A DNA stretch of 64,000 nt from an uncultured Pseudomonadales bacterium (GTDB taxonomy: Bacteria > Pseudomonadota > Gammaproteobacteria > Pseudomonadales > Cellvibrionaceae): NCBI GenBank assembly GCA_947487765.1, contig CANKXO010000007.1:22180-86179 (forward strand), in the 5' to 3' direction. The notes under the pieces are model-generated. The model was not told the origin of the DNA and did no database searches. It saw only the letters and a list, made by a program, of their open reading frames with translations. A program made the position numbers and the translations under genes. Below are positions 29,433-44,917 of this stretch, one piece after another (the stretch's first letter is position 1; the number at the start of each line of letters is the position of its first letter).

Positions 29433-29441
29433 GTTTACATC

Positions 29442-29593: not shown

Positions 29594-29601
29594 AATTTAT
29601 T

Positions 29602-29917: not shown

Positions 29918-30211
29918 ATGAGACTTGCTATAACGCGATCAGGTTTTTATAACGCTGATCTTTATTGCGCTGATACTCGTACAGCTAAAAGAGTGTTGCG
30001 TGAAAAAAATATTTCCATATTGGCTATCGACTATTATCTAGTTGGCCAGGGAAATGGTTGCGATATTATTGATTGGGCTAAAAGAAATGCAGTTTTGCCT
30101 AATTTTATCGTTGTTATTGAACGTAATCGCAACAAACGAGCCTTATTATCGAATACATTACGAAATATAGGTTATCGCTCTGGTGATGATACTACCTTTA
30201 TAAGGCATTAA
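29918..30211 (+). CDS. Hypothetical small protein (97 aa), alternating beta/alpha pattern (receiver/Rossmann-like?)
   Basis: RBS aaaggagg 7 nt before ATG 29918; MRLAITRSGFYNADLY...ISILAIDYYL...NFIVVIERN; the longer tracked ORF from 29795 lacks an RBS. Confidence 0.5.
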   Translation: MRLAITRSGFYNADLYCADTRTAKRVLREKNISILAIDYYLVGQGNGCDIIDWAKRNAVLPNFIVVIERNRNKRALLSNTLRNIGYRSGDDTTFIRH

Positions 30212-30250
30212 ATTTAGTTAAAGCGACCACTATGATTAATTGAGAATAGG

Positions 30251-30814
30251 ATGATGAATATTCAAATTTTGCAGCTATCGAAGTCAGGTCACCCAATGTC
30301 TTGGGTGAACCGTGAAGAAGCCGCAACACTGTATGCAAAAAATAGGGTGTTATGGGAGCTGGGTGACGAAGTTATTCCAATTGTCGGCGGTATTAATCGC
30401 TTGGGCATTCAAAGTCGCTTCGATATGGCACCAATTATTGCTTGTGATGGTGATGTGAAACAACCTCGTTTACGACCATCGTTAAGTAATCGTATGCTGT
30501 TTCGCCGAGACGATTACCGATGCTTGTATTGTGGTGTTCAGTTTAATCACGACGGATTAACGCGGGACCATATTGTGCCGCGTATTCAAGGTGGTTTAGA
30601 TCGTTGGGAAAATGTGGTTGCTGCTTGTAAACGCTGTAATCACAGTAAGGGTGGTCGAACGCCAGAGCAGGCAGGGATCAAGCTATTGGCCATTCCATTT
30701 GTGCCGAATCCGTTTGAGTTTCTGTTTTTGGCAAATCGACATATTCTGGCTGACCAGATGGATTATCTTGCGACAAGCTTTTCGTCAAAGCGAGACTGGA
30801 AAAAAGTGGCTTAA
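30251..30814 (+). CDS. HNH endonuclease-domain protein
   Basis: CLYCG...DHIVPRIQGG...WENVVAACKRCNHSKGG (HNH with zinc-ribbon cysteines). Confidence 0.8.
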   Translation: MMNIQILQLSKSGHPMSWVNREEAATLYAKNRVLWELGDEVIPIVGGINRLGIQSRFDMAPIIACDGDVKQPRLRPSLSNRMLFRRDDYRCLYCGVQFNHDGLTRDHIVPRIQGGLDRWENVVAACKRCNHSKGGRTPEQAGIKLLAIPFVPNPFEFLFLANRHILADQMDYLATSFSSKRDWKKVA

Positions 30815-30834
30815 CTATTAAGCCACCCACATAT

Positions 30835-30862
30835 TTGGAATACAGGTATTAACCTGTATTCC
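30835..30862 (+). terminator. Strong hairpin after the HNH gene (11-bp stem, weak U-tract)
   Basis: ggaatacaggt-atta-acctgtattcc. Confidence 0.5.
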
Positions 30863-30991
30863 ATACCGATGTTTATACGTATGTTGGCGAAACAGCGGCT
30901 CTGGTTCTGAATGCCAGGCTGGCACAGTCATGTTTTATGTCCTGTGTACCGATTCACTAACACGTTAAACAGTATGCTCTGAAAAAGCATA

Positions 30992-31064
30992 GTTTTTGTA
31001 GCTCATAGGGTAGAGCAATCGACTCATAATCGATGGGTAGCAGGTTCGATTCCTGCCTCAAACA
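30992..31064 (+). tRNA. Degenerate tRNA-Met (CAT)-like gene (weak acceptor 5/7, no CCA)
   Basis: D gctc/gagc, anticodon atcga-ctCATaa-tcgat, perfect T-arm gcagg-ttcgatt-cctgc. Confidence 0.4.
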
Positions 31065-31084
31065 CAGTCAGTTTTAATAAACTG

Positions 31085-31424: not shown

Positions 31425-32576
31425 ATGATTCTTTGGAAAACAATCGATATTGCGGAACATGAACGTGTATTACTTTATGTCCGTGATCAATTTAAACAAG
31501 TGCTAGGCCCAGGTCGGCATCGTGTCTCGACCTTGAAGGGAAAAGTTCGCCAGGAAACCTATGATATTACCGAAGTAGTATTCAGGCATCCTAAAGAAAA
31601 ATTTTTGCTGTCACACTACCCAGAAAAACTGGCAATGCACCTTGAGCAGTTTGACTTAAAAGATACTGAAGTGGGCTTGTTATATCGAAATGGCCATTTA
31701 ATGAATGTGTTGGCACCTGGTAGTTTATTTACAGTTTGGAAAGGTGTTGAGGATATTCGTGTTGACGTTATCGATATTAATAACCACTATCAGATAGAAG
31801 AGTCTTTAATTGGCTTATTGGGGCGAGGCATTAAAATTGGTCAAAGCCGAGAAGTCGTTAATGCGATTGCTTATGCAGAGGTAGTTGATGAGCATGTAGG
31901 TTTATTGCTGGTTAACGGTAAGCTAGAAAAGATCTTGCAACCGGGTAGTTACGGCTTCTGGAAATATAACCGTTCAATTGCGGTTAAAATGCTTGATCTT
32001 CGTTTACAAGCAATGGAGGTTAGTGGCCAAGAGATTCTGACCAAAGATCGCGTGAGTTTGCGTATTAACTTAACTGGTAGTTATAAAATTAAAGATCCTC
32101 AAATTGTTGCCTCTAAGGTGAATGATTACGCAGGTTTTATCTATCGTGAGTTGCAATTAAGTTTGCGAGAAATTGTAGGCACACAATCATTAGATGGATT
32201 GTTAGAAGATAAAGATGCTTTAAATTCTGTAATTACTCAGAGTACACGAGAAAAATTAGCGGAATACGGTATTCAGTTAATGAGTGTCGGGGTTAAAGAT
32301 ATTATTTTACCTGGTGAAATGAAGCAGATTCTGAATCGAGTAGTAGAGGCGCAAAAAGAGGCTGAAGCTAATTTGATTAAGCGTCGTGAGGAAACTCAGG
32401 CAATGCGTTCATTACATAATGCTGCCAAGATGATGGAAAACAACCCTGTGTTGTTACGTTTAAAGGAATTAGAAGCATTAGAAAGAGTGACTGGGAAAAT
32501 CGATAAGATTTCTGTCTATGGTGGCCTTGATAGTGTTCTTAATGACTTGGTAAAACTGGCGCCGGTCAAAACCTAA
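31425..32576 (+). CDS. SPFH/band-7 domain protein (cytoplasmic, duplicated N-terminal beta-domain)
   Basis: SPFH core TKDRVSLRINLTGSYKIKDPQIVASKV...QLMSVGVKDIILPGEMKQILNRVVEAQKEAEANLIKRREETQAM; no N-terminal TM. Confidence 0.7.
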   Translation: MILWKTIDIAEHERVLLYVRDQFKQVLGPGRHRVSTLKGKVRQETYDITEVVFRHPKEKFLLSHYPEKLAMHLEQFDLKDTEVGLLYRNGHLMNVLAPGSLFTVWKGVEDIRVDVIDINNHYQIEESLIGLLGRGIKIGQSREVVNAIAYAEVVDEHVGLLLVNGKLEKILQPGSYGFWKYNRSIAVKMLDLRLQAMEVSGQEILTKDRVSLRINLTGSYKIKDPQIVASKVNDYAGFIYRELQLSLREIVGTQSLDGLLEDKDALNSVITQSTREKLAEYGIQLMSVGVKDIILPGEMKQILNRVVEAQKEAEANLIKRREETQAMRSLHNAAKMMENNPVLLRLKELEALERVTGKIDKISVYGGLDSVLNDLVKLAPVKT

Positions 32577-32749: not shown

Positions 32750-34531
32750 CTAGCGAAAAGATACAATCAAAAATATAAGTACAGCAATTGCCGCAAAAAT
32801 CATTACGCGAGCGAAGGGTTGCATAGAATCTGTATTAGATGCATCCGATAGCCATGGTGATTGAGATTCTTTCTGTTGTTGTGACTTAGTTTCTTCCTTT
32901 TTTGTTTGTTTTTTTGCGGTCGCTATTTGTTTAAGCTCTTCTGTAGTATTCTCTTTAACAGGTGGTGCTGGTGGCTCAGCTTGCCACCAGTTTTCGCGTG
33001 GTGCTTCACCGGCAGCGGCCTTTAAGCGTAAAAGTTTATTATTTAATTTGCCAATGCGACTTGGATTAACTTGATAACTGTATTTTTGTTTTAGTTGTAC
33101 TATTTGCTTTTGTAAAGGAATGCCCTTGCTAGGGTTAACCATTGCGACAAAGTTGGCGTAACCTTCTATGGAGCACAATAAATTGCTACTGCTATTGTGA
33201 GAACGATGAGCCCAGTGCTTACCCTCTAGCCCGCTTTTGTCAATTTGATGTAGTAAGGCTCTGAAGCGCTTTAAGGTCTTGCGATCAACGCTAAGGTTAT
33301 TATTCACTACCACGCCGGTCACTTCTTGTTTTTTATGCTTGCGCATAATGCGTGTTTTTTCGGGGTGAACAATAAAACCTTCATCCTTAATAATACTATG
33401 ACAACGCCACAATAGTTTTTTTACAATGCTGTCGTCAATATTCTGTGGATTAATATCATCGCCCTTGTTGGAGCTTGCCGAAAAAGTAACATCGTCAGCA
33501 TATCGCGTATAAGTAAAGCCTAATTTTTTAGCCATCCCTTGTAAGCGAGCATCCAATTTTCTACAGATGATATTGCTAATATTAGGGCTAGTTGGCGCTC
33601 CTTGCGGTAAAAAGCGCTCTCCGTTACTAACAAACCAAGACTGACTATCTAGTTCAACCTCCTGTGTATTCGCTTCGGTGCAAAGTAAGGCTAGTACTGT
33701 TGCAATGTGTTCACTGTAACCTAGAGCTTTAAACATCCCCTTAACTCTTGGATAGCTAATTGTTGGAAAGAAGTTTTTAAGGTCGAGGTTAATAACAATA
33801 TCTTTGCCTACATGAGGCGCAGCATTGGTTACGATAGAGCGCGTGCGTACAAAGCCATGAGCGGCATCATGTAATGCCAGCGGCTCTAAAATATTGGATA
33901 AAACCCAATACTGGGCAAGTTTCAACCGTGGCATAGGGGCAGATATTAGGCGAGTTCCACCGGTTTTCTTGGTCATTTGGAAGCGTTGATAATGACTAAT
34001 CGTGCAGACATCTTTTTGGTAGACTAAAAAACGTAGCTCATTAACGGTAATGCCCATGGCTCTGGCCAACATTTGGCTGTCGTGCAGTAGTGGTAACTGT
34101 TGGGCTTGGAGTTTGTCTTCATCGCTGTTAACTTTTGATAGCCCTATCGATAAACCTTCCCCTACGAAGGTAATAAATTTCTTTTGGATGTCGTACCAAT
34201 TCTTTGCTCGTTGGTATCGTGTTTCATTGCGTTCTTTACGCTTTTCTTCTCTACGAATAAGTGCTTCTTTTTTACGCTGTTTGTGTAACTCCTTTAGTGC
34301 TTGCTCTGGGTCTTGATACAATTGCTGTTGCTTTCCTAATTCACGCAGTTGCTTTTGTAACTGCCCGCGCTTTTCAATAAAGGTTTCTGTTAGTGTTGGC
34401 TGTTCACTATTTTTTGGCCAAAACCCAAGACGTTTCATCTCTGCTAAAATATAAACTTCTTTACCACCTGTTTCGCGTACGCGCTGGTAGAGTTCTTGGC
34501 GGCTTAATTTTTTAGTGCTTTCGTCAGACAT
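32750..34531 (-). CDS. Retron-type reverse transcriptase with a long N-terminal extension and a C-terminal transmembrane anchor
   Basis: RLISAPMPRLKLAQYWVL, NAAPH (NAxxH), NLDLKNFFPTI, QGAPTSP, YADD, VTGVVV (VTG); collinear with Ec86 RT; C-terminus MIFAAIAVLIFLIVSF is hydrophobic after a Lys/Gln-rich low-complexity linker. Confidence 0.85.
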   Translation of the reverse strand: MSDESTKKLSRQELYQRVRETGGKEVYILAEMKRLGFWPKNSEQPTLTETFIEKRGQLQKQLRELGKQQQLYQDPEQALKELHKQRKKEALIRREEKRKERNETRYQRAKNWYDIQKKFITFVGEGLSIGLSKVNSDEDKLQAQQLPLLHDSQMLARAMGITVNELRFLVYQKDVCTISHYQRFQMTKKTGGTRLISAPMPRLKLAQYWVLSNILEPLALHDAAHGFVRTRSIVTNAAPHVGKDIVINLDLKNFFPTISYPRVKGMFKALGYSEHIATVLALLCTEANTQEVELDSQSWFVSNGERFLPQGAPTSPNISNIICRKLDARLQGMAKKLGFTYTRYADDVTFSASSNKGDDINPQNIDDSIVKKLLWRCHSIIKDEGFIVHPEKTRIMRKHKKQEVTGVVVNNNLSVDRKTLKRFRALLHQIDKSGLEGKHWAHRSHNSSSNLLCSIEGYANFVAMVNPSKGIPLQKQIVQLKQKYSYQVNPSRIGKLNNKLLRLKAAAGEAPRENWWQAEPPAPPVKENTTEELKQIATAKKQTKKEETKSQQQKESQSPWLSDASNTDSMQPFARVMIFAAIAVLIFLIVSFR

Positions 34532-34638
34532 CTGCCTGTCTCCCTAATATAAATAAGGATAAATGTTGAGTGTTAAAAAAATGGATAATGATAGTTGTTA
34601 CAAGAACAAATAAAGAAGAGAAGTGCGCAAGATAAAAG

Positions 34639-34868
34639 GGTGCCAGCGTGCTCAATGTTTCCTTCGTAGAGCTCTTAGTACTGGATTGATCAACTCGACG
34701 CGGCACGCCCCTACTATCGCTCATTGACTTCATGGAAGTCATACCGCAATAGCGATAGTAGGGGCTGTGCCGCCCTATGAAGATCAGGCCAGTGACGCGT
34801 GTGTAGTCTATAAACCAGAACGGCGATGCACCGCTCAAATTGCAAGGTAGATAAGTCACGCTGACACC
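34639..34868 (-). ncRNA. Retron msr-msd non-coding RNA (a1/a2 inverted repeats flanking a long msd hairpin)
   Basis: a1 ggtgtcagcgtg (minus strand, plus coords 34857-34868) pairs with a2 cacgctggcacc (34639-34650) over 12-14 bp; about 72-nt near-perfect palindrome at 34701-34772 (cggcacgcccctactatcgct...agcgatagtaggggctgtgccg with inner gacttc-atg-gaagtc). Confidence 0.7.
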
Positions 34869-34931
34869 TGTGCTAGTATAGCAGTGTTGTTAGGTTTTAA
34901 AAGAGCGCTATTAAAATTCTTCATGATCTCT

Positions 34932-36572
34932 TTAACCGTTTGCTAAGGAATATTGTTTTCTGATCGCTAATATATGTTCGCATGGCCCCATGCGCAGTAA
35001 ATTCGTTCGATAAAAATAACAGTCGCAGCTAGCCTCTTTTAAACGTTGATCGCCGTCAATTTTAATCTCAGTGTTCAAATGGTGTCCGTCATCAATGACT
35101 GTTCCTTGAATTTGAGCACCTCTTTCATTTTCTAGCTTATGATGAATTGTCACCAAGTTGGCGGCCACAAATCGAGCAGACTTTTCATCGCGCTCATTAG
35201 CAAAACGCAATGAGTCCATCGGTAAAGGTTGTTGGCTAAGTTCACGGATACGATAAACACTTCCGGCTAAATCATAAAGCACTTGCCCCTGTTGGCTATA
35301 GGCAGCCAATGCAGATTTCACTACTGACTCATCTAAATGCAGTCGTCGTGCCAGTGAGTCACTGGATTCTTGCCATGTCTCTGATAGTGCTTGGTAAACA
35401 CGTTTAAGTGTTACTTCGTCAACATCACCTCTAGGCGCTAATAGATCAAAGTTACCCATTCGTGACCAATCATTTGCTGACCAGCCCGACAAACCTAAGG
35501 TAAATGTCATATCGCCTAAATCGGCAACGTAAAAACTAGGTAAGCCATTACCTAATAGATGTACCGTAAATTTTTTGGCGATAGGGATTAAACGCTCCAA
35601 TATATGCAGGCGACGGCGCCCCCATATACGAATTGATCTAGCGTCATTTCCTGTATAAATGCTTCTGGCTAATATTAATTCTGTGCCCCATGGCTCTAAG
35701 ATAATTTTAATAGGCTCATCTGATGCCAGTTCAAATCGTATTGCCCGAGGGCCTACGCGCTCTCTTTTACGCCGCAACATATAACAAATATTGTGAATAT
35801 CCATTGGGTGCAATGTTAATGTGGTCATGGGTAAGGTCATAGCTGAGCTTACCTGTAAAAAACCACGCACCCAGCTTTCAGGAAGATCAATTTTCTTTTC
35901 GTCAAATTGTTCCTCATGGCTGGTTTGCATACTGAAACCATCGGGGTCAATTGCCAATGCTGTTTGGCGATACTCTCTTATTTTTTGAAATTCGTTGTAT
36001 AAACCTTCCGAGTAATCAATATTTGTGGTGCCGTAAGAAGTATCGGTTATATTATCAAATACGTCATAGCTACAGCTAAGTTTTCCGTAACTTGATTCAT
36101 CTTCAGAAAAACATTCAAAAAAAACTTCGTCGGGATGGACGGTAATTACTGGGTCAAGTACATACCAAGCATCCATATCGGTTTTATAAAGATGTTTGAA
36201 ATATTTGTTCTGAGCTGTATAAAAAGGCCCCATTAATGCTTGGCTTTGCTTGCTAAGTTCAGATAGTTCTTTGCGCACAAGCTCAATTTCGCCTTCCACC
36301 TGTGACTTGCGACCAATAAATTCTGCCAATAGCCGCTCTTCTTCTTCAGCTAGCCAGCGCTCGTATTCGCTGCGATCTTTTGGCTGAAAGCGCATATCAG
36401 AAATCACAACATTGTGTAGTGCCGATATCGCCTCACGAAAAGCTATTTTCTGCTTAAGCTGTCCTACAAAATAAGTAGGTAGGCGCAAACTGTCAGGCAC
36501 AAAAGATACATCTGTACTCGCTGCATTGCTCGCAACATGGCTCTGCCCATGATATCGATAACGAAATTCCAT
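34932..36572 (-). CDS. SWIM zinc-finger protein (retron accessory / putative effector)
   Basis: C-terminal CxCx(n)CxH: EASCDCYFYRTNLLRMGPCEHILAI; 546 aa. Confidence 0.7.
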   Translation of the reverse strand: MEFRYRYHGQSHVASNAASTDVSFVPDSLRLPTYFVGQLKQKIAFREAISALHNVVISDMRFQPKDRSEYERWLAEEEERLLAEFIGRKSQVEGEIELVRKELSELSKQSQALMGPFYTAQNKYFKHLYKTDMDAWYVLDPVITVHPDEVFFECFSEDESSYGKLSCSYDVFDNITDTSYGTTNIDYSEGLYNEFQKIREYRQTALAIDPDGFSMQTSHEEQFDEKKIDLPESWVRGFLQVSSAMTLPMTTLTLHPMDIHNICYMLRRKRERVGPRAIRFELASDEPIKIILEPWGTELILARSIYTGNDARSIRIWGRRRLHILERLIPIAKKFTVHLLGNGLPSFYVADLGDMTFTLGLSGWSANDWSRMGNFDLLAPRGDVDEVTLKRVYQALSETWQESSDSLARRLHLDESVVKSALAAYSQQGQVLYDLAGSVYRIRELSQQPLPMDSLRFANERDEKSARFVAANLVTIHHKLENERGAQIQGTVIDDGHHLNTEIKIDGDQRLKEASCDCYFYRTNLLRMGPCEHILAIRKQYSLANG

Positions 36573-36643
36573 ATTTTTGCCTGAGAAATTTTTCTGAAAA
36601 TTATGAATCTAATGCGTTTTTGTATAATTTTTATATAGCGTTT

Positions 36644-39600
36644 TTAAACACCCAGCGATGCAGGTTGTTTAATGGGTACCTTTTTGGCTGTTAAGGGTGA
36701 TGCTATATCTGGATACAATGATTGTAATTTAAGCATAGCTTTTATCAAAGCGGCTTTATCTTTATGTACCATAGTTAACGAAATTCGTTCCAATAAAGGC
36801 ATTACCATAGTGGCAACACTTATATCTTTTTCTGCTTCTCTTAATAAAAACAGTAGAATCCTATCTTTACAAACGCGACCCTTATTAATTTGTGATAACG
36901 CTGTTGTAAAATAAGCTTGTAATGAAAGTATATGGCTAGGAATACCCGCCGCGTATTCTTCTAAAAAACTGCTGACAAAAAGCTGTACATTATTTGACGG
37001 ATGCTGGCTTAACTTAAGCAAGTATTCTGGGCCATACTCAGCTTTAAAAAAAGATTGTAGTATTTCGCGTCCAAAGCTTTGTACGTCATCTCTGATGCTG
37101 TCGCAAATAAAAATAACAATTTCAGGGCTCCAATCTTCTTGGCTGTATTGTTGTCGAAAAAAATCAAAGCCAAAGGTTCTTGCATCGTCCCAGTTGCTAT
37201 TTAGAATTCGAAGAGCATCACGACTGTATTGTTTAATTTCATCTACATTTTTCTCGTAAGCCTGAAATGCAAACTGCCTGACAGATACATCGCTATGCTG
37301 GCCTAATATTGCCCATTGTTTGACTGAAAATATATCTGCATTACGTTCAGTTAAGGTTATGGCGCCCACTCGTTGAGCACAGATAGATTGTGCCTGTAAT
37401 AAGCGCCATAGCATATCATTGTCTAGTTTCGTTAAATGTGATTGTGCCAATGAAGTAAAAAAGGCAATTAATTCTTCATGTTGCCCAGGCTGCTCTTCAG
37501 ACTTAAATGTCAGCGCTAATAATGTATTTTCAATCTGCTCGGATCCCTGTTGAGAGTTGGTCATTAGGCGGGAAAAAATAGAAAGTAGGGAGGCGCGCTC
37601 TTGAGTATCGCCCTTGCAATACAAGCCGACTAATAAGTCTAATTGTTTGATTAAGTCTTTATCGGCTTGTTTGCCTAGTAATGCAGCACCTATCCCTCTA
37701 ACTTCGGCTGAGGATGAATCATGAATTGCCTGTAATAAGCTGTCGGGAATATCTCCATAAGATATTTTGTGTCCAAGCAATAATTTTGCACCTAATATTT
37801 TTCTGGGTACTTTCTCGTCATGAATTAAACGTTGCAAACTAGTAAGAGGGAAGTGTTTAATTGCATCATTTAGGTTCTCAAGTGCAAAATCGGCCAAATA
37901 CTCTGCATGCTTTTCGCTTAAGTTGCTGTTCTCTAAAAAGATAGAATCAACTATAGCTTGCAATAGTTTCTCAGCATTTCTACCAGAAATCTTTTGCTGG
38001 CAAACAGCCGTTTTAATGTCACTTTGTACATCACTATGAAGAATCAATAGTAGTGATGTTAATAGTGAAATATCATCATTAATTTTGAACCTTAGTAAAG
38101 ATTGCTTACCTAATACTCTAGCCTCAGTCAGCGAGCTACTTAGTAGAGCGATTAATAATTCACTACTTAAATCGTCTTGTTTAATGCGTTCGCGAACAAT
38201 TGCTAGTGCAAATTCACAAGTACTCGCATAGTTGCTGTTCAGTAAAAGAGCTAAATCTACAGGGCTGATTTTCTGGCAAAAACTCGGTTGATTTTCTAAT
38301 ATCCGACGAGCGAAAGGATGAACCAGCTCGCATCGACTTGTTTTTAATAAGCGTAGTGCATGGCTAGGCTTTTGATCCCAAAGTTCAGCAAAGCATTCGG
38401 TACGAGATCCATTTATCAAGGAAGTACCGTCGGTATTCGACTCATCACTTTTTATCCAGACGCGGCCACTAGGTGCAAGTTGATACCCTGGATGATGTTC
38501 GAAGAGGATATGATTTAAGCTTAAGAAGCTGGCAAAAGGGCCATATTCATTGCTGGATATCAACTGGCGTTGCCAATTGTCGCCACTATTATCCCAGCGA
38601 TAAACCTCTGATGTTCGAGGCTTGCTACCATGCTCATCATTAATCGCAAGCAATGATTCTGTTGCCATATCAACATAACGGAGATCACCGGCCTGTCCTA
38701 TACGCCTGAGTACTCGCCAGCTACGACGGCGAAAGTAATCTCGTGTACGATGCGAGAAGGTCAATTTTGCATTGGCCTTTTTCAGTTCTTTAGATGGTTT
38801 AATACTGCCTTCACCGGGAAGCCATGCCCAATCCCAATCATTACGAAAAAATGCGGGTGCTGTTTCTATACGCTGCGCTAATAAGCCAAATACAGACCCG
38901 TCAAGACGTAGCTCGGATGCTTTATAAATTGATCTAATGCCCCGAAAATATCCTGGGGTTAGGGGAATAATAGCCAGTTGACTTAATAATGCTTGATGCA
39001 ATATGGGGTAAGCTAGCGATAGCTGATAACAAAGTACCAATAGCTGATTAGTATTGTTAACGTTGTCACTAGCCCCATGACTGAGCAACGCGCCAAGTTG
39101 CTGATGAGCAGTGCTACTATTTCCTTCCATAACAGCAGATTTAAACTGTGCAGGAAAGTGCTGCCAATGGCTGCCTAACAAGGCTTTGCGCGATGTTTGG
39201 TCGCTGATTAATAGTTGCGATTCAAAGGCTATATGACAAACTTGTGCTTGTTTGTGTTGCCTCAAGGTTTCTAAAACCGCCTTGTGTTGCGTGGCAACCA
39301 TCCGCCCCAAGGCCCAAGCAATAGAGTAATCCTCTAACCAATGGCCTTTCTTAATATAGGGCACAATTGCATTGGCAATAGGTTCACAATCTCGGTGCCC
39401 TAATTCCCCGAGTCGCCATATCATGCGGCTGCGAGATTTAGTCTCTTTTTCATTGGGTAAATGATTGAGTATCTGTTCAATTAGTTTAAAAGGAAAGTCA
39501 TCGGAGGCAAGATTGCTAGAAGGGACGCCTGCAAGTGTAGGCGAGGTAGTAGTAGGGGACTGTTTTGCTTGTTCTCTATCCCAATAGCCTTTATTGACTT

Positions 39601-39820
39601 TGGATACAACAACACTATCAAATAGCTTCTCTGCTTTGCTAAGCTCAACAGCTTCAGGGGTTTTAGTGCCTTCTCTTAATTGATTGCCGCGACGCCCGTA
39701 TCGAAAATTAACGAGATAACGTTCATCTTTTCGGCTTGCTAACTCACATAAATCAACTTCATAAACTTTGTCGGAATTGCCTTCCTGATACACCAATCGA
39801 GATTGCTTGATTAGTCGCAT
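36644..39820 (-). CDS. Large WGR-like + alpha-helical repeat protein (MolR/DUF4132-like), retron accessory
   Basis: N-terminal KVYEVDL...YLVNFRYGRRGNQLREGTKT resembles a WGR domain; the remaining roughly 950 aa are Leu-rich helical repeats. Confidence 0.55.
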   Translation of the reverse strand: MRLIKQSRLVYQEGNSDKVYEVDLCELASRKDERYLVNFRYGRRGNQLREGTKTPEAVELSKAEKLFDSVVVSKVNKGYWDREQAKQSPTTTSPTLAGVPSSNLASDDFPFKLIEQILNHLPNEKETKSRSRMIWRLGELGHRDCEPIANAIVPYIKKGHWLEDYSIAWALGRMVATQHKAVLETLRQHKQAQVCHIAFESQLLISDQTSRKALLGSHWQHFPAQFKSAVMEGNSSTAHQQLGALLSHGASDNVNNTNQLLVLCYQLSLAYPILHQALLSQLAIIPLTPGYFRGIRSIYKASELRLDGSVFGLLAQRIETAPAFFRNDWDWAWLPGEGSIKPSKELKKANAKLTFSHRTRDYFRRRSWRVLRRIGQAGDLRYVDMATESLLAINDEHGSKPRTSEVYRWDNSGDNWQRQLISSNEYGPFASFLSLNHILFEHHPGYQLAPSGRVWIKSDESNTDGTSLINGSRTECFAELWDQKPSHALRLLKTSRCELVHPFARRILENQPSFCQKISPVDLALLLNSNYASTCEFALAIVRERIKQDDLSSELLIALLSSSLTEARVLGKQSLLRFKINDDISLLTSLLLILHSDVQSDIKTAVCQQKISGRNAEKLLQAIVDSIFLENSNLSEKHAEYLADFALENLNDAIKHFPLTSLQRLIHDEKVPRKILGAKLLLGHKISYGDIPDSLLQAIHDSSSAEVRGIGAALLGKQADKDLIKQLDLLVGLYCKGDTQERASLLSIFSRLMTNSQQGSEQIENTLLALTFKSEEQPGQHEELIAFFTSLAQSHLTKLDNDMLWRLLQAQSICAQRVGAITLTERNADIFSVKQWAILGQHSDVSVRQFAFQAYEKNVDEIKQYSRDALRILNSNWDDARTFGFDFFRQQYSQEDWSPEIVIFICDSIRDDVQSFGREILQSFFKAEYGPEYLLKLSQHPSNNVQLFVSSFLEEYAAGIPSHILSLQAYFTTALSQINKGRVCKDRILLFLLREAEKDISVATMVMPLLERISLTMVHKDKAALIKAMLKLQSLYPDIASPLTAKKVPIKQPASLGV

Positions 39821-40200
39821 AGCTTCCTTAAACTCTTTTATTTTTTGATAAACTTATTTTTTTGAGTATAGCATTATCCTAATAATGGACAAGACTACAT
39901 GGCTATATTATATCTAGAGTTTACACTCGCTCTATCGTAAAGACTATGCTTCTATATACTTCATTCACGTTTTATTAGATAGCAATTATAACCTTTACCC
40001 CTTTCCCTGACGTGATTGTAAAGTGTTAATTTCATATTTGGGTTTACGGCGGTGCTATAATTTTGGTTGCTGTGTCAGGAAGTGTCGCGTTATTTTCAAT
40101 TCTAAAGGTTATCTTGATGAATGTGTTACCTAGCCCGATGACAAATATGTAATTACTATATTTTAAACAATTTTTAAATGCTTAACTGGTAGTAAAGTAT

Positions 40201-41460
40201 ATGCAATTAAATAATAAAAAAGTTTACTTAGTTGGCGGAGCTGTCCGTGACGAACTATTGAATCGCCCAGTTTCAGATCGAGACTGGGTGGTGATTGGTG
40301 TGACTCCAGAAATGTTGATTAAGCAAGGCTATCGGCAAATCGGTAGTGACTTTCCTTGCTTTTTGCATCCTGAAACCAAAGATGAATATGCACTGGCACG
40401 TACGGAGAAAAAATCAGGAAGCGGCCATACAGGGTTTGTGTGTGATTTTAGTCCTGAGGTAACTCTCGAAGAAGATTTATCTCGGCGCGACCTCACCATC
40501 AATGCCATTGCTAAAACAGTAGAGGGTGAATATGTTGATCCTTATGGAGGCAGAGAAGATTTAGAGAATCGAATATTGCGCCATGTATCAGATGCATTTG
40601 CTGAAGACCCATTGCGTGTGTTACGCGTTGCTCGTTTTGCCGCTCGCTACGCAGAGTTAGGTTTTACGGTACACCCAAGTACATTAGCCTTAATGGCTCA
40701 GTTAGTCAGTTCTGGTGAACTATCAGAATTAACACCAGAGCGAGTCTGGAAAGAAATGTCTCGTGCATTAACAGAGCCTCGTCCTAGTGAGTTCTTTCGT
40801 GTGCTTCGTGCCTGTGGTGCTTTGTCGGTACTATTACCCGAAGTAGATTGCTTATTCGGTGTTCCTCAGCCACCCCAACATCATCCTGAAATTGATACCG
40901 GCGATCATGTAATGATGGTGGTTGATATCGCTAAAGAGCGCTTTGATTCTATTAATATCACTTGGGCTGCCTTAATGCATGATTTAGGAAAAGGGCTGAC
41001 GCCTGAAGAGGAGTGGCCCAAGCATATCCGTCATGAAATTAAAGGTGTGCCATTAGTTGAGGCTGTTTGCGAGCGTTATAAAGTTCCGCGTGATTTTAAA
41101 ACATTAGCAATGTTAGTTTCTGAGCACCATTTGCGTTGCCATAAATTATTAGAGATGAGACCAAAATCCATTATGCGCTTATTAGAAGCGCTGGATGCTT
41201 TTAGGCGGCCAGAGAGGGTTAAATATTTTGCGCAAGCCTGCGAAGCCGACGCCAGAGGTCGCTTAGGTTTAGAAGATAGAGATTACCCACAATCGTCACT
41301 ATTAATAAAATGCGGTGAAGTGGGGAAGGATATAGATATTAAGCCTTTACTGGATGAAGGCTACCAAGGCTTGAAGCTGGCGGAACAGATTCGCCGTTTA
41401 CGACTAGGGGCGATTAAGAGGTTTATGGCAAATTATCGAAAAGAAATATTAGGGAAATAA
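40201..41460 (+). CDS. cca: CCA-adding tRNA nucleotidyltransferase with HD domain
   Basis: LVGGAVRDELLNRPVSDRDWVV, TERKSGSGHTGF, RRDLTINAIA, LRVLRVARFAARY, HHPEIDTGDH, collinear with E. coli Cca. Confidence 0.9.
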   Translation: MQLNNKKVYLVGGAVRDELLNRPVSDRDWVVIGVTPEMLIKQGYRQIGSDFPCFLHPETKDEYALARTEKKSGSGHTGFVCDFSPEVTLEEDLSRRDLTINAIAKTVEGEYVDPYGGREDLENRILRHVSDAFAEDPLRVLRVARFAARYAELGFTVHPSTLALMAQLVSSGELSELTPERVWKEMSRALTEPRPSEFFRVLRACGALSVLLPEVDCLFGVPQPPQHHPEIDTGDHVMMVVDIAKERFDSINITWAALMHDLGKGLTPEEEWPKHIRHEIKGVPLVEAVCERYKVPRDFKTLAMLVSEHHLRCHKLLEMRPKSIMRLLEALDAFRRPERVKYFAQACEADARGRLGLEDRDYPQSSLLIKCGEVGKDIDIKPLLDEGYQGLKLAEQIRRLRLGAIKRFMANYRKEILGK

Positions 41461-41464
41461 TAAG

Positions 41465-42367
41465 ATGAGCAGTAAAACTCAGCATTTAATTAAACAAGGT
41501 TTACTCAAGTCTCCGCCTAAGTTTTTGGAAACCGGGGTACAGTATGAAGTGGTTATGGGCTCTATTGCCTATGGTGTTGCTGAAGATCACTCTGATATGG
41601 ATATTTATGGTTTTGCCATTCCACCACGAGACTGGGTATTTCCTCACTTAAGAGGAGAAATTTCAGGTTTTGATGAATCTGGCCCTCAATTTGAGCAAGT
41701 GCAGCAACATCATATGTTGGATAAGTCTGCACGTGGAGGTAAAGGCAAGGAGTATGATTTGGTCATCTATTCGATTATTAAATACTTTCGCTTACTGATG
41801 GATAATAACCCTAATATTATTGATTCTTTATTTGTGCCGCGCAATTGTGTGCTTTATAGCACTGCTGTTGGTGAGATGGTCCGCGAAAACCGTCATCTAT
41901 TCTTGCATAAAGGTTGTTGGGCAAAGTTCAAAGGTTATGCTTATTCACAAGTACATAAAATGCGAACAAAGGTTCCAGAAGGTGGCCGTCAAGCGATCAT
42001 TGATGAATATGGTTATGATGTAAAATTTGCCTATCATGTTGTTCGGTTACTGAATGAAGTCGAGCAAATATTAATTGAAAAAGACCTTGATTTGGCACGA
42101 AATAAAGAGCAATTAAAATCGATACGCCGTGGCGAATGGACACAGCAAGCCATTGAAGAATATTTTACTAATAAAGAAAAACAACTTGAGCAAACTTATC
42201 TGGACAGTGCCTTGCCTGCGTTACCGGATAAAGCAGCTATTAAAAAGTTATTGTTGGAATGCTTGGAGCATCATTACGGCTCATTATCTGAATGTATTGT
42301 TCAGGAAGATGAGGCTTTGATCGCTATTCGAGAAATTGAAACGATAGTGCAACGCTTGAAAAAGTAA
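41465..42367 (+). CDS. Pol-beta superfamily nucleotidyltransferase (predicted RNA-repair NTase)
   Basis: GS-x10-D-x-D motif MGSIAYGVAEDHSDMDIYGF; start is 4 nt after the cca stop (likely co-transcribed). Confidence 0.6.
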   Translation: MSSKTQHLIKQGLLKSPPKFLETGVQYEVVMGSIAYGVAEDHSDMDIYGFAIPPRDWVFPHLRGEISGFDESGPQFEQVQQHHMLDKSARGGKGKEYDLVIYSIIKYFRLLMDNNPNIIDSLFVPRNCVLYSTAVGEMVRENRHLFLHKGCWAKFKGYAYSQVHKMRTKVPEGGRQAIIDEYGYDVKFAYHVVRLLNEVEQILIEKDLDLARNKEQLKSIRRGEWTQQAIEEYFTNKEKQLEQTYLDSALPALPDKAAIKKLLLECLEHHYGSLSECIVQEDEALIAIREIETIVQRLKK

Positions 42368-42864
42368 GCCTTTATTTTTTAATTGAACCACTTTGTATTT
42401 GTTAACCTATAAAAATACTCATTAATATAGTTGTAGTTAATTTTTGTAAGGAAATGTTATAAAAATTATGAATAAAGATATTGATATATAATTTTAATAT
42501 GACTATAGTGCGCGCAGTTTTTACAAATCACCTTTAATCAATACTCTACAGGAGGCTCAAGTATGTTGTATCTAAATAATCAAATCGCATTGTTGGGTTT
42601 GTCTGTATCTTGTTCTTATAGCTAACATTTTTGTTAACGCTATAGCTATCTTTCAGATAAATCCTCTTAGCTAAACGTCTTAACTGTACGTTATAGGTAG
42701 TTTTGCGTAATTTTTTAAGCTAATTCTTGTTGGTCAAATTCTATCGACCATACATTTGCATTTTTTTATGCGGTTAGCGATTAATCTGTATCGCCTTTTG
42801 TTTCAACTCGAAAATATTTTTTGAGGGGGCAATGTCGTGCCTAAAAACATGAGTAGAAATTTTA

Positions 42865-44091
42865 ATGGACACTTATATTAAAAAAATTAATACGCTGGTT
42901 GATCGGCAGGCGAGAGTTGTTATCTTTGATGATAATTGGCTTGAAGATTCTGCTGTTGAGCAGTTGAAAAGAACAATGGAATTAGACGGCATGTTGAGAG
43001 GTATCGGTATGCTTGACCTGCACCCAGGTAAGGGGCAACCAATTGGTGCAGCGTTTGTAACGTGTAATGCCATCTATCCTCACCTTGTCGGGAGTGATAT
43101 CGGTTGTGGTATGGGATTATGGGATTTAGATATTCCAGTCCGAAAAGTTAAATTGGATAAATGGGAGAAGCAATTAGTTGGCCTTGATGAATTTTGGGAT
43201 GGATATCCAAATGATCGGTTACAGAAAAAAGATATTGATACAACTGATACTTTTTTATTATCTGAAAACGGTAAGTTAGGAACCATCGGTGGTGGTAATC
43301 ATTTTGCAGAGCTACAGAAAATTGACAGTATTATTGATTCTGTTGCGTTTAAGCAGTCAGGTCTCAATCATCAGTCTGTTAAATTACTAGTGCATAGTGG
43401 TTCGAGAGGTCTGGGCCAAAAAATTCTCAGGCGCTATGTTGATGATTTTGGCTCAAGCGCTATTTCGACAAATGAACAACCTGAACTTGGTCAACATTAT
43501 ATTCAGCAACATAACTACGCTATCAGATGGGCTGAAGTGAATCGTGATGTCATTGCAGACCGGTTCTGTGAACAGCTCAAAGCGCAGCGGAGATTGGTAT
43601 TGGATGTTGCTCACAACAGGGTTGACCCATTGGCTGAGGAATACGCTGAAGCGATGGGGTTATTAACAAAGAGGCTGCCAGGAAATGGCAACAAAAAATA
43701 CTGGATACACCGTAAAGGCGCAAGCCCAACTAATGAAGGGTTGGTCATGATACCGGGGTCTCGTGGTAGCTTGAGCTACCTTGTTAAGCCTCGTTTGTCG
43801 AATATTCATAGTCTTTCTCAAGGTGGTTTTTCATTGGCCCATGGTGCAGGACGTAAATGGAAGCGAAGTGATGTTCGAGGACGATTAGAAAGCCGCTATA
43901 AAGTAAAAGATTTGGAAAAAACAGCCTTGGGTAGTCGAGTTATTTGTAAGCAACGCGACTTACTGTATGAGGAAGCACCTCAGGCTTACAAAAATATAAG
44001 TCATGTAATAAGTGATTTGGTTGGCGCTGGTCTTGTCGATATTGTTGCAACATTTAAACCGTTACTGACTTATAAGACACGGAGGGTATAA
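42865..44091 (+). CDS. rtcB: RtcB-family RNA ligase, second copy (RtcB2-type, paired with PrfH)
   Basis: GSDIGCGMG, GGGNHFAELQ, HSGSRGLG, AHGAGRKW. Confidence 0.85.
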   Translation: MDTYIKKINTLVDRQARVVIFDDNWLEDSAVEQLKRTMELDGMLRGIGMLDLHPGKGQPIGAAFVTCNAIYPHLVGSDIGCGMGLWDLDIPVRKVKLDKWEKQLVGLDEFWDGYPNDRLQKKDIDTTDTFLLSENGKLGTIGGGNHFAELQKIDSIIDSVAFKQSGLNHQSVKLLVHSGSRGLGQKILRRYVDDFGSSAISTNEQPELGQHYIQQHNYAIRWAEVNRDVIADRFCEQLKAQRRLVLDVAHNRVDPLAEEYAEAMGLLTKRLPGNGNKKYWIHRKGASPTNEGLVMIPGSRGSLSYLVKPRLSNIHSLSQGGFSLAHGAGRKWKRSDVRGRLESRYKVKDLEKTALGSRVICKQRDLLYEEAPQAYKNISHVISDLVGAGLVDIVATFKPLLTYKTRRV

Positions 44092-44093
44092 AT

Positions 44094-44789: not shown

Positions 44790-44917
44790 TCTATTAAAAA
44801 ACTGGAGTAATGAAATGAATAATCAACAAACCCCGTTGGGCATTTATCGAAATAAGAAGCGAATTTTTACGCCTTCCAAATGGCAGGTTGCTGTAATGAA
44901 CGAAAGAGAATACGAAG

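What the first reader, a model, noticed from the sequence alone, without database searches (positions are those of the whole stretch)
34932..39820. Retron accessory pair: SWIM zinc-finger protein + 1058-aa WGR/helical-repeat (MolR/DUF4132-like) protein
Two large same-strand genes directly upstream of the retron ncRNA/RT are separated by 70 nt. The 546-aa protein ends in a textbook SWIM motif, CDCYFYRTNLLRMGPCEHILAI. The 1058-aa protein opens with a WGR-like beta-domain, YLVNFRYGRRG, followed by about 950 aa of leucine-rich helical repeats. A SWIM + DUF4132/WGR pair is a conserved duo of unknown function. As far as I recall, a retron class with a SWIM-type accessory protein plus a large repeat protein exists only as a bioinformatic category, without a mechanism. 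Neither protein shows a nuclease, ATPase or NAD-ase motif by eye, so the effector activity is unclear. Possibilities are a nucleic-acid sensor or translation-targeting module, which would connect to the tRNA and ribosome-repair genes nearby.
Basis: partly seen in the sequence, partly recalled or inferred. Interest (0 to 1): 0.75.

Follow-up and report, generated by a model that had tools for sequence, protein, structure and literature searches.

The report
Type XIII retron accessory gene pair
These two genes are the standard accessory pair of a type XIII retron, a catalogued bacterial reverse-transcriptase system whose mechanism is unknown, and structure prediction suggests the "SWIM" partner contains a PCNA-like DNA-clamp fold, which gives a testable idea of how it handles the retron's DNA.

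Summary
Two same-strand ORFs (1058 aa, 36644-39820; 546 aa, 34932-36572) lie directly upstream of a retron ncRNA (34639-34868) and a 593-aa RT (32750-34531).

All three proteins match the PADLOC type XIII retron models over their full length: WGR_XIII 1030 bits, SWIM_XIII 771 bits, RT_XIII 623 bits. This is the class Mestre et al. defined in 2020, which includes Mx162. The locus is therefore a new member of a known class, not a new system.

- **Conserved cassette:** the order WGR/HEAT, SWIM, ncRNA, RT recurs across many phyla. Of 44 related loci with full flanks, 36 have the RT within 8 kb.
- **Neighbours:** the tRNA and RNA-repair genes nearby are not conserved partners.
- **MolR/DUF4132/YehQ:** this label is not supported.

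What may be new:
- The SWIM protein is the most conserved component (median 57% identity, against 31% for WGR/HEAT).
- The RT carries a C-terminal membrane anchor.

I found no published mechanism or solved structure for type XIII. The model I propose, an msDNA-bound clamp/wHTH/SWIM core with a variable WGR-HEAT sensor, is inferred and not shown.

The parts
36644..39820 (-). Accessory gene 1: 1058-aa WGR + HEAT/ARM alpha-solenoid protein (PADLOC WGR_XIII; Mestre cluster 216 type)
39581..39820 (-). WGR domain (aa 1-80) of the 1058-aa protein; candidate nucleic-acid end/junction-binding module
   Evidence: Pfam PF05406, residues 12-85, 23.1 bits against cutoff 22. It is the most conserved block of the protein: 19 of the 51 invariant columns in alignment A2 fall in aa 1-79.
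34932..36572 (-). Accessory gene 2: 546-aa protein with coiled coil, PCNA-like clamp fold, winged helix and SWIM zinc finger (PADLOC SWIM_XIII; Mestre cluster 114 type)
   Evidence: ORF. PADLOC SWIM_XIII 1.3e-232, 771 bits, full length. More than 5000 homologues. AF2 model pLDDT 75.5.
35478..36164 (-). Predicted PCNA-like two-lobe DNA-clamp fold (aa ~137-365); contains the conserved acidic residues formerly read as a DEDE motif and four helices that each carry basic residues
35229..35453 (-). Winged helix-turn-helix domain (aa ~374-448)
34974..35027 (-). SWIM zinc finger C516-x-C518-x12-C531-x-H533
   Evidence: Read directly from the sequence. All four ligands are invariant in alignments A1 and A3.
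34639..34868 (-). Retron ncRNA (msr-msd), bounded by inverted repeats a1 (34857-34868) and a2 (34639-34650)
   Evidence: 12-nt inverted repeat, 11 of 12 Watson-Crick plus one G-U. MFE -106.9 kcal/mol, z -6.95. The same architecture occurs in the SWIM-RT spacer of 25 other loci: a1/a2 repeats of 10-16 nt with different sequences, conserved motifs, and compensatory changes in the long hairpin. No Rfam family matches.
34679..34793 (-). Long imperfect hairpin within the ncRNA; presumed msd template giving a long duplex msDNA stem
   Evidence: MFE structure. Perfect 15-bp core at 34751-34765 / 34707-34721. The hairpin is conserved with compensatory substitutions across loci. The msd assignment is by analogy with other retrons.
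34875..34883 (-). Extended -10 promoter-like element TGCTATACT, 6 nt upstream of a1
   Evidence: Read from the sequence. It was not reported by the consensus scan because no -35 is present. Function is inferred.
32750..34531 (-). Retron reverse transcriptase, 593 aa, clade 10 / type XIII, with an N-terminal extension (~aa 1-140) and a C-terminal linker plus hydrophobic tail
   Evidence: PADLOC RT_XIII 8.8e-188, 623 bits, against 323 bits for the next model. Pfam RVT_1. YADD and VTG motifs are present in the translation. Nearest solved structure is the Ec86 RT, 9e-44.
32753..32818 (-). C-terminal hydrophobic, transmembrane-like segment of the RT (aa ~572-593, FARVMIFAAIAVLIFLIVSFR)
   Evidence: Translation. 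Related RTs in L001-L009, L011-L014, L024 and L072 (L010 has no tail) have equivalent tails, with a 19-aa Kyte-Doolittle maximum of 2.2-2.7 in all but L003 (1.5).
39865..39892 (-). Sigma-70-like promoter candidate upstream of the WGR/HEAT gene (TTGTCC-16-TATACT with TG)
   Evidence: Consensus scan. This is a pattern match only.

Best explanation
The two genes are the accessory module of a complete type XIII retron, arranged as WGR/HEAT gene, SWIM gene, msr-msd ncRNA, RT.

Shown here:
- All four parts are present and intact.
- The cassette is inherited as a unit across many bacterial phyla.
- The 546-aa protein is predicted to be built from a coiled coil, a PCNA-like two-lobe clamp fold, a winged helix and a SWIM zinc finger.
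- The 1058-aa protein is a WGR domain on a roughly 950-aa HEAT/ARM solenoid with no enzyme fold.
- The SWIM/clamp protein is the slowest-evolving component and WGR/HEAT the fastest.

Inferred mechanism:
1. The RT makes an msDNA with a long duplex stem.
2. The clamp/wHTH/SWIM protein binds that DNA. It may do so as an oligomer organised by its coiled coil, using the conserved basic residues on its four predicted helices. This would form the invariant core of a nucleoprotein complex.
3. The WGR domain of the partner binds a DNA end or the RNA-DNA junction. Its fast-evolving solenoid would act as scaffold and as the surface that meets phage factors.
4. In this gammaproteobacterial lineage the RT tail tethers the complex to the inner membrane.
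5. Infection that alters, competes for or degrades the msDNA would free the clamp protein. The freed protein could engage chromosomal or phage DNA and block replication, or could act through the conserved E153/D158/D186 site. Either outcome would give abortive infection.

The output step is the least certain part. I put identity as a type XIII retron module at about 0.95 and the msDNA-bound clamp model at about 0.3-0.4.
For: **Identity**
- Full-length PADLOC matches to WGR_XIII, SWIM_XIII and RT_XIII.
- The Mestre et al. definition of type XIII matches feature by feature.
- The ncRNA has a1/a2 repeats and a long hairpin, conserved with covariation in 25 other loci.

**Co-inheritance**
- Of 44 related loci with at least 7 kb on both flanks, 36 have the RT, 40 have WGR/HEAT, and 32 show the same order and strand.
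- Relatives at ~30% identity also sit next to an RT.

**Clamp fold**
- Foldseek probability 1.00.
- The secondary-structure order of aa 250-361 is beta-alpha-4 beta-alpha-3 beta, which from my recollection is the order of a PCNA domain.
- R199 and R319 are >= 90% conserved, and the WGRRRL and SWxRGFLQV helices are retained in the family consensus.

**DNA-binding modules and lack of enzymes**
- wHTH, SWIM and WGR are present.
- No enzymatic fold appears in the HEAT protein.

**Core versus variable component**
- Median identity is SWIM 56.7%, RT 49.9% and WGR/HEAT 31.1% across the same 42 loci.

**Membrane tether**
- Hydrophobic C-terminal tails occur on RTs of the related gammaproteobacterial loci.

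**Clamp not needed for synthesis**
- Clade 10 RTs are among the best RT-DNA producers in E. coli without accessory genes (PMC10849725). This fits a post-synthetic role for the accessory proteins.
Against: - The clamp fold rests on one AF2 model (pLDDT 75.5, from 33 fairly similar sequences). No sequence-level similarity to clamps supports it.
- Ring formation, msDNA binding and the geometry of the basic helices could not be examined.
- Lobe 1 is strongly acidic (7 K+R against 22 D+E).
- Lobe 1 carries near-invariant Ser/Thr/Asp/Glu loops (FSxDESxY, GTTNID). These look more like a ligand or catalytic site than a passive clamp.
- No toxic effector domain is identified, so the abortive-infection output is a guess.
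- Anti-phage activity of any type XIII retron was not found in the literature searched.
- Mestre et al. report partly vertical inheritance and suggest that some retrons may have non-defence roles.
- 8 of 44 loci have the SWIM gene, usually with WGR/HEAT, but no RT within 8 kb.
Confidence: 0.45

Rival explanations
1. The SWIM protein is a nuclease effector derived from a DEDE (IS256/Mutator-like) transposase, as Mestre et al. proposed. It is held inactive by RT-msDNA and cuts DNA when released, and the HEAT protein is only a helper.
For: The motif Dx7Dx4Ex32Dx38E (D140, D148, E153, D186, E225) is present and invariant among close homologues. It matches the published pattern. E153 is invariant, and D158 and D186 are >= 90% conserved family-wide. 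Mutator-type transposases carry SWIM fingers (my own knowledge). Nucleases are common retron effectors (abstracts listed).
Confidence: 0.15
2. The type XIII cassette is not primarily an anti-phage abortive-infection system. The clamp-like protein, the WGR/HEAT protein and the msDNA would serve a domesticated cellular role in DNA metabolism such as repair, replication restart or end handling.
For: The SWIM/clamp protein is 55-66% identical across Gammaproteobacteria, Cyanobacteria, Planctomycetota, Bacteroidota, Acidobacteriota, Myxococcota and Clostridia, which is unusually conserved for an immune protein. Mestre et al. report a moderate correlation with host 16S and suggest that some retrons may be domesticated. 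PCNA, 9-1-1 and WGR are DNA-repair modules in other contexts (established knowledge). No toxin domain was found.
Against: Distribution is patchy and the genomic neighbourhood differs in every relative examined, as expected for a mobile accessory cassette. Every retron type characterised so far in the papers found is a defence system. WGR/HEAT evolves quickly (31% median identity), consistent with an arms race.
Confidence: 0.2
3. The clamp-like protein is a processivity factor for the RT, needed to synthesise the unusually long msDNA of this class.
For: The PCNA-like fold. From my own knowledge, the named type XIII retrons (Mx162, Sa163, Ne144; listed) have among the longest msDNAs. Here the msd hairpin spans about 115 nt.
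Against: Clade 10 RTs expressed in E. coli with only their ncRNA were among the highest RT-DNA producers (PMC10849725). The hypothesis does not explain the WGR/HEAT, wHTH or SWIM modules.
Confidence: 0.05
4. The pair is an RT-independent WGR/DUF4132 + SWIM (MolR/YehQ-like) module that lies next to the retron by chance, or a translation/tRNA-targeting module linked to the neighbouring tRNA array and the RtcB, PrfH and CCA genes.
For: E. coli has a locus combining WGR (YehF), DUF4132 (YehH/YehI) and SWIM (YehQ) proteins without an RT. Here the cassette lies between a 14-tRNA array with RtcB and a cca-RlaP-RtcB-PrfH cluster. 8 of 44 related loci lack an RT within 8 kb.
Against: There is no homology to YehI, YehF or YehQ beyond the SWIM finger and no DUF4132 hit. 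36 of 44 full-flank loci, and all three ~30%-identity relatives examined, have an adjacent RT. The neighbour genes gave only four stray hits in 80 loci: two weak HNH matches, one cca-like and one PrfH-like. The cca gene is the ordinary housekeeping equivalog (621 bits against cutoff 451).
Confidence: 0.04

Closest known systems
Retron type XIII (RT clade 10; Retron-Mxa1/Mx162, Mxa2/Mx65, Sau1/Sa163, Nex2/Ne144) as defined by Mestre et al. 2020
   Same: It has the same three protein families by full-length HMM, the same gene order, the SWIM CxCx12CxH finger, the central acidic motif, a WGR-like + HEAT/ARM partner, and a distinct long-hairpin ncRNA beside the RT.
   Different: Nothing at class level. 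This gammaproteobacterial branch adds a transmembrane-like tail to the RT. Here the two accessory genes are 71 nt apart, against about 10 nt apart or overlapping in relatives. My fold assignment for the SWIM protein (clamp-like) differs from the published transposase-derived nuclease reading.
PCNA / 9-1-1 / beta sliding clamps (DNA clamp fold)
   Same: A predicted two-lobe clamp fold of about 230 residues with four helices that carry conserved basic residues.
   Different: There is no detectable sequence similarity. The fold is embedded in a larger protein with coiled-coil, wHTH and SWIM modules. Lobe 1 is highly acidic with near-invariant polar loops. The cassette's three genes match no ATPase family, so no clamp loader is evident. 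Ring formation is untested. This is a resemblance of fold, not a claim of family membership.
WGR domains of PARP1/2/3 and bacterial WGR proteins
   Same: An N-terminal WGR domain above the Pfam threshold, with the motif retained as Y-G-R. In PARPs this domain reads DNA breaks and 5' ends (established knowledge).
   Different: There is no PARP catalytic domain. The domain is fused instead to a roughly 950-aa HEAT/ARM solenoid. Nucleic-acid binding has not been tested.
E. coli yeh locus (YehF WGR, YehH/YehI DUF4132 'MolR', YehQ SWIM, with MoxR/VWA genes)
   Same: WGR, helical-repeat and SWIM proteins are combined in one locus.
   Different: No homology beyond the SWIM finger. There is no RT or ncRNA in the yeh locus, and no MoxR or VWA genes here.
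Mechanistically solved retrons (types I-A Eco7, I-B Eco8, I-C Eco2, II Eco1, III-A3 Eco11, VI, IX Kva2)
   Same: The general logic is an RT-msDNA complex paired with accessory proteins. The RT core is homologous to Ec86 RT (9e-44).
   Different: Those systems have recognisable enzymatic or toxic effectors such as nucleases, an NDT-like protein, a PRTase-like protein, HEPN or a small toxin. None is recognisable here.

Membership tests
Retron type XIII (Mestre et al. 2020) | RT belongs to clade 10 (RT_XIII) | tested here: met
   PADLOC RT_XIII 623 bits, covering residues 3-552; the next-best model (RT_other) scores 323 bits.
Retron type XIII (Mestre et al. 2020) | Linked cluster-114-type protein with a winged helix and a C-terminal SWIM finger CxCx12CxH | tested here: met
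Retron type XIII (Mestre et al. 2020) | Central acidic motif Dx7[D]x4Ex30-32Dx37E | tested here: met
   D140-x7-D148-x4-E153-x32-D186-x38-E225, invariant in 33 close homologues. The last spacer is 38 rather than 37.
Retron type XIII (Mestre et al. 2020) | Preceding gene encodes a WGR-like + HEAT/ARM repeat protein (cluster 216 type) | tested here: met
   WGR_XIII 1030 bits. Pfam WGR and HEAT_2. Solenoid model.
Retron type XIII (Mestre et al. 2020) | Adjacent ncRNA with a1/a2 repeats and the class-specific structure | tested here: met
   a1/a2 repeat and long hairpin, z -6.95. The architecture and sequence motifs are shared with 25 other type XIII loci. I did not compare it directly with the published consensus drawing.
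Retron type XIII (Mestre et al. 2020) | Production of branched msDNA | not testable with these tools
   This needs RNA/DNA analysis. The RT catalytic YADD motif is intact.
Anti-phage defence system | Protects against phage when expressed | not testable with these tools
   I found no experimental report for type XIII.
DNA sliding clamp (PCNA / 9-1-1 / beta) | Two-lobe DNA-clamp fold | tested here: met
DNA sliding clamp (PCNA / 9-1-1 / beta) | Detectable sequence homology to known clamps | tested here: not met
   Profile searches of PDB sequences with A1 and A3 return no clamp. I therefore do not file it as a clamp-family member, only as clamp-like in fold.
DNA sliding clamp (PCNA / 9-1-1 / beta) | Closed or C-shaped oligomeric ring with a basic inner surface around duplex DNA | not testable with these tools
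   No multimer prediction or model coordinates were available. The only indirect hint is conserved basic residues on the four helices.
MolR / DUF4132 family | Pfam DUF4132 domain or homology to YehH/YehI | tested here: not met
   No DUF4132 hit on this protein or among the precomputed Pfam hits of its 120 best homologues. BLASTP finds nothing. hhalign probability 0.2%.
YehQ-type SWIM proteins | Homology beyond the zinc finger | tested here: not met
   Only 32 columns around the SWIM finger align, at probability 10.7%. BLASTP is not significant.
DDE/DEDE transposase-derived nuclease (IS256/Mutator-like) | RNase H-like catalytic fold carrying the acidic residues | tested here: not met
WGR domain (PF05406) | Score above the Pfam gathering threshold | tested here: met
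   23.1 bits against 22. Many homologues carry precomputed PF05406 hits.

The most novel reading that the evidence does not exclude
The SWIM subunit of type XIII retrons is a true DNA clamp. It assembles through its coiled coil around, or along, the long duplex stem of the msDNA. Together with a WGR-HEAT end/junction sensor and a membrane-tethered RT, it forms a DNA-end or DNA-entry surveillance complex. This would be the first use of a sliding-clamp fold as a core component of a retron or bacterial immune system, and a mechanistic handle on Mx162, the first retron discovered. Its output would be clamp re-targeting to replicating DNA, or a catalytic site grafted onto the clamp fold.
Probability: 0.25. 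Interest if true: 0.8.

Novelty: new member of a known kind. Interest (0 to 1): 0.5.

Why it matters
Type XIII is one of the most widespread retron classes. It was the third most abundant in a 2026 metagenome survey and had the broadest phylum range there. It contains Mx162, the first retron ever found.

No mechanism or solved structure for type XIII turned up in my searches. The mechanistic and structural retron papers I found cover types I-A, I-B, I-C, II, III-A3, VI and IX.

This locus adds nothing new at class level. The structure-based reading of its accessory proteins does change the working hypothesis, from a transposase-derived nuclease to a DNA-clamp-like msDNA-binding core. The evidence is a PCNA-like fold in place of the proposed transposase-like nuclease, a generic HEAT scaffold with a WGR head, an extremely conserved clamp/SWIM subunit against a fast-evolving HEAT subunit, and membrane-targeting tails on the RT.

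That hypothesis names specific residues to mutate. If confirmed, it would also be useful for retron-based genome-editing tools that use the highly productive clade 10 RTs.

Tried and rejected
- **Rfam scan, 30-46 kb, E-value mode.** It found only a tRNA and no retron ncRNA family.
- **Phage origin of the region,** suspected because of the 14-tRNA array. There is no DNA match to 50,697 phage records in near or distant mode. The flanking genes are ordinary metabolic and housekeeping genes, so this is a bacterial chromosome.
- **Functional link to the neighbours** (RtcB x2, PrfH, RlaP, cca, HNH, SPFH). They are not conserved near the cassette in 80 loci or in the closest relatives.
- **MolR/DUF4132/YehQ homology.** Rejected.
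- **Sequence-level support for the clamp fold.** PDB profile searches found none. hhalign of lobe 1 against lobe 2 found no internal repeat (probability 0.1%). The fold claim therefore rests on the AF2 model alone.
- **RT processivity-factor idea.** Disfavoured by the census paper.
- **Exact-sequence look-up of the window's SWIM protein.** Not on record, so the source organism was not identified. The best hits, at 66-72% identity, are a Tara Oceans metagenome contig, Hahella and Pleionea.
- **Literature searches** for a type XIII mechanism, a clamp in retrons, or a WGR+SWIM+RT combination. Nothing was found beyond Mestre et al. 2020 and survey papers. One search was swamped by fish-swimming papers, and one apparent hit was irrelevant.
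- **The 111-aa ORF overlapping the ncRNA (34524-34859).** No family hit; treated as spurious.


Full report
**1. Observation**

The ORF list shows three consecutive minus-strand genes:
- a 1058-aa ORF at 36644-39820;
- a 546-aa ORF at 34932-36572;
- a 593-aa ORF at 32750-34531.

The first two are 71 nt apart. The 400 nt between the second and third hold no credible ORF. The 546-aa protein ends in C516-D-C518-x12-C531-E-H533, a SWIM finger. The 1058-aa protein begins with a WGR domain (Pfam PF05406, 23.1 bits, cutoff 22) followed by HEAT-like repeats.

**2. Identity**

Against PADLOC-DB the three proteins match the dedicated type XIII retron models over their full length:

| Protein | Model | E-value | Bits | Coverage |
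|---|---|---|---|---|
| 1058 aa | WGR_XIII | 0 | 1030 | profile 1-971 of 973 |
| 546 aa | SWIM_XIII | 1.3e-232 | 771 | full length |
| 593 aa | RT_XIII | 8.8e-188 | 623 | next-best RT model 323 bits |

Mestre et al. 2020 (PMC7736814) define type XIII by these features:
- RT clade 10, with Mx162, Mx65, Sa163 and Ne144 as named examples;
- a protein with a central Dx7[D]x4Ex30-32Dx37E motif, a winged helix and a C-terminal SWIM finger CxCx12CxH;
- usually a preceding WGR-like + HEAT/ARM protein;
- a class-specific ncRNA.

All of these are present here. The acidic motif reads D140-x7-D148-x4-E153-x32-D186-x38-E225.

The spacer between the SWIM gene and the RT contains the ncRNA:
- a 12-nt a1/a2 inverted repeat (34857-34868 / 34639-34650) 206 nt apart;
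- a 15-bp perfect hairpin core;
- a fold of -106.9 kcal/mol against -72 ± 5 for shuffles, z = -6.95;
- an extended -10 element, TGCTATACT, 6 nt upstream of a1.

Rfam has no matching family.

**3. Is the linkage real?**

The SWIM protein family is large. More than 5000 proteins were retrieved by the word-indexed search. An exhaustive search found 1182 50%-identity clusters at E <= 1e-3.

A scan of one genome per species returned at least 572 loci, and I examined the best 80. tBLASTn with the three window proteins gave these results:
- Among the 44 loci with at least 7 kb on both sides, 36 have the RT within 8 kb and 40 have the WGR/HEAT gene.
- 32 of the 44 show exactly the order WGR/HEAT, SWIM, RT on one strand.
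- The SWIM-RT spacer is mostly 280-600 nt.
- In 25 of these spacers there is a perfect 10-16-nt inverted repeat, mostly 200-235 nt apart, with a different sequence in each lineage. This is covariation.
- An alignment of 26 ncRNAs shows shared motifs: CCUUGCA after a1, a GGUGGAUCGCC hairpin, CACGCGUCACUG, GAGUUGA and UUCGAAGG. The long hairpin keeps pairing through compensatory changes.

Three family representatives at only ~30% identity are also RT-adjacent. One has the alternative order RT, HEAT, SWIM.

Eight full-flank loci have the SWIM gene, usually with WGR/HEAT, but no RT within 8 kb. They include cyanobacterial and Bacteroidota genomes. So RT-less arrangements exist but are the minority.

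**4. What the pair is not**

- **MolR/DUF4132.** Neither this protein nor the precomputed Pfam hits of its 120 best homologues include DUF4132.
- **The E. coli yeh locus.** I fetched it as L081. YehI, YehF and YehQ show no BLASTP similarity to the window proteins. Profile comparison gives 0.2% probability for YehI. For YehQ only the 32-column SWIM finger aligns, at 10.7%. The yeh locus is an analogy of domain content, not a homologue.
- **A phage.** The window is bacterial chromosome, with no phage DNA match and metabolic genes on both sides.
- **A partner of its neighbours.** The cassette sits in a ~21-kb stretch between a LysR gene (24357-25265) and an aminotransferase gene (46252-47946). 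That stretch holds 14 tRNA genes, two RtcB ligases, PrfH, RlaP, an HNH protein, an SPFH protein and the housekeeping cca gene. None of these accompanies the cassette in the 80 related loci (four stray hits) or in the two closest relatives with context. The proposed link to tRNA or ribosome repair is therefore positional coincidence.

**5. Anatomy of the two proteins**

*SWIM protein.* An AF2 model from 33 homologues (pLDDT 75.5, pTM 0.65) gives these regions:

| Residues | Predicted element |
|---|---|
| 1-40 | N-terminal beta-strands |
| 42-131 | long helices (coiled-coil-like) |
| ~137-365 | mixed alpha/beta region |
| 374-448 | winged helix |
| 474-516 | beta-sheet |
| 516-545 | SWIM finger |

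The strand-helix order of residues 250-361 is beta-alpha-4 beta-alpha-3 beta. From my recollection this is the order of a PCNA domain; I did not check it here. The region holds exactly four helices (189-195, 232-244, 256-268, 320-328). Each carries or abuts conserved basic residues: K197/R199, R236, R267-R270, and R319-R321 with R327.

No sequence method sees this fold. That would explain why the 2020 analysis read the acidic motif as transposase-like. In the model those acidic residues lie in clamp lobe 1. Lobe 1 is strongly acidic (7 K+R against 22 D+E), whereas lobe 2 is basic (17 against 11).

Across 45 representatives at 27-51% identity:
- the invariant residues are P141, V145, E153, G181, W364, G429, R443 and the four zinc ligands;
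- S156, D158, S160, Y162, T182, T183, D186, R199, W317, G318 and R319 are at least 90% conserved.

The polar cluster FSxDESxY / GTTNID could be a ligand or catalytic site. I could not inspect its geometry.

- the WGR domain;
- a basic block around residues 292-375 (R296, K300, R360, R364, R366, R369);
- the C-terminal ~130 residues.

**6. Evolutionary asymmetry**

Across the same 42 complete loci, median identity to the window proteins is 56.7% for SWIM, 49.9% for the RT and 31.1% for WGR/HEAT. The SWIM/clamp subunit is 55-58% identical between Gammaproteobacteria and Cyanobacteria, Planctomycetota, Acidobacteriota, Myxococcota, Bacteroidota or Clostridia. The partners in the same loci are far more diverged. 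Recent transfer therefore cannot explain this level of identity. It points to dense constraint on the SWIM subunit and rapid change in the HEAT subunit. I infer from this that the former is the invariant core and the latter the specificity or sensor surface.

**7. RT tails**

The RT here ends in a low-complexity linker and a hydrophobic segment, FARVMIFAAIAVLIFLIVSFR. The RTs of the related loci L001-L009, L011-L014, L024 and L072 have one or two such segments. RTs from Acidobacteriota, Planctomycetota, Myxococcota, Bacteroidota and Clostridia instead end in a conserved K-K-x-W-W-K-[LFIV]-[FW] peptide after a similar linker. Cyanobacterial RTs have neither.

The simplest reading is two alternative membrane-association devices. 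A clamp-docking peptide is a less likely alternative, because tail-less cyanobacterial systems keep the SWIM and HEAT genes.

**8. Mechanism**

Shown:
- a complete, conserved four-part cassette;
- DNA- and nucleic-acid-binding modules (clamp-like fold, wHTH, SWIM, WGR);
- no recognisable toxin or enzyme;
- RT-DNA synthesis by this RT clade does not need the accessory genes (PMC10849725).

Inferred:
- The clamp/wHTH/SWIM protein binds the long msDNA duplex, possibly as a coiled-coil-organised oligomer.
- WGR/HEAT binds an end or junction and provides the variable surface.
- The RT tail places the complex at the membrane.
- Infection that perturbs the msDNA releases an activity that arrests the cell. 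That activity could be clamp re-targeting to DNA or the conserved acidic/polar site.

I put about 0.95 on the identity and 0.3-0.4 on the msDNA-bound clamp model. The output step is open. The rivals are listed separately with their tests: a transposase-derived nuclease, a non-defence DNA-metabolism role, an RT processivity factor, and an RT-independent or translation-linked module.

**9. Comparison and novelty**

The locus passes every sequence-testable criterion for type XIII, so it is a new member of a known kind. I found no paper giving a mechanism, phenotype or structure for type XIII. No type XIII component is in the PDB by sequence.

The clamp-like fold, the conservation asymmetry and the RT membrane tails are, as far as these searches go, unreported. 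They rest on prediction and comparative data only.

**10. Verdict**

The finding is real and correctly recognised as a retron accessory pair. The MolR/DUF4132 and tRNA-repair ideas are wrong. The class is already catalogued, so the locus itself is ordinary. Moderate interest remains because the class is widespread, historically important and mechanistically blank, and because the fold assignment gives concrete experiments.

Noticed in passing
window 26664-31065 (+): There is an array of 14 tRNA genes in about 4.4 kb: Trp, Asn, Tyr, Met x4, Ser, Gln, Cys, Gly, Lys, Thr and Arg. An RtcB-family RNA ligase gene (~28206-29312) lies inside the array. The mechanical ORF start at 27885 overlaps tRNA-Gly and tRNA-Lys and is probably too far upstream. 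The ligase's best NCBIfam match is an intein-containing RtcB model, far below that model's cutoff.
   Followed up: partly
window 40201-45874 (+): This is an RNA-repair cluster next to the retron. It holds the housekeeping CCA-adding enzyme (621 bits), an RlaP-family nucleotidyltransferase, the RtcB2-PrfH pair (release_rtcB / release_prfH) and an unassigned 318-aa ORF. The cluster is not conserved beside type XIII retrons elsewhere.
   Followed up: partly
window 32753-32818 (-); RT C-termini in L001-L080: Type XIII RTs carry lineage-specific C-terminal tails after a low-complexity linker. The related gammaproteobacterial loci have transmembrane-like segments. Acidobacteriota, Planctomycetota, Myxococcota, Bacteroidota and Clostridia have a conserved terminal K-K-x-W-W-K-[LF]-[FW] peptide. 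Cyanobacteria have none. This suggests membrane association of the RT.
   Followed up: partly
L001-L080 versus window 32750-39820: Conservation is very uneven within one cassette. Median identity is 57% for the SWIM/clamp protein, 50% for the RT and 31% for WGR/HEAT. The SWIM protein is still 55-58% identical between distant phyla.
   Followed up: yes
L022, L028, L030, L040, L044, L053, L055, L060: These loci have a SWIM gene, usually with WGR/HEAT, but no RT within 8 kb on either side. They include cyanobacterial genomes (Trichodesmium, Moorena, Calothrix) and Bacteroidota. L028 has two WGR/HEAT paralogues upstream of the SWIM gene. I did not check whether a distal RT exists.
   Followed up: partly
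window 30251-30814 (+) and 29795-30211, 31425-32576: A small stand-alone HNH endonuclease has its best matches to the HNH domains of IscB/Cas9d and PtuB. It is flanked by an unassigned 138-aa ORF and followed by a tRNA-Met gene and an SPFH/Band-7 protein. No defence system was called.
   Followed up: no
window 34639-34868 (-) and the SWIM-RT spacers of 25 loci: The type XIII ncRNA shares short sequence motifs across phyla: CCUUGCA after a1, a GGUGGAUCGCC hairpin, CACGCGUCACUG, GAGUUGA and UUCGAAGG. No Rfam family covers it, so a covariance model could be built from this alignment.
   Followed up: partly
window 36573-36643 (-): The spacer between the two accessory genes is 71 nt and AT-rich here. 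In relatives the genes are about 10 nt apart or overlap. Its significance is unknown.
   Followed up: no
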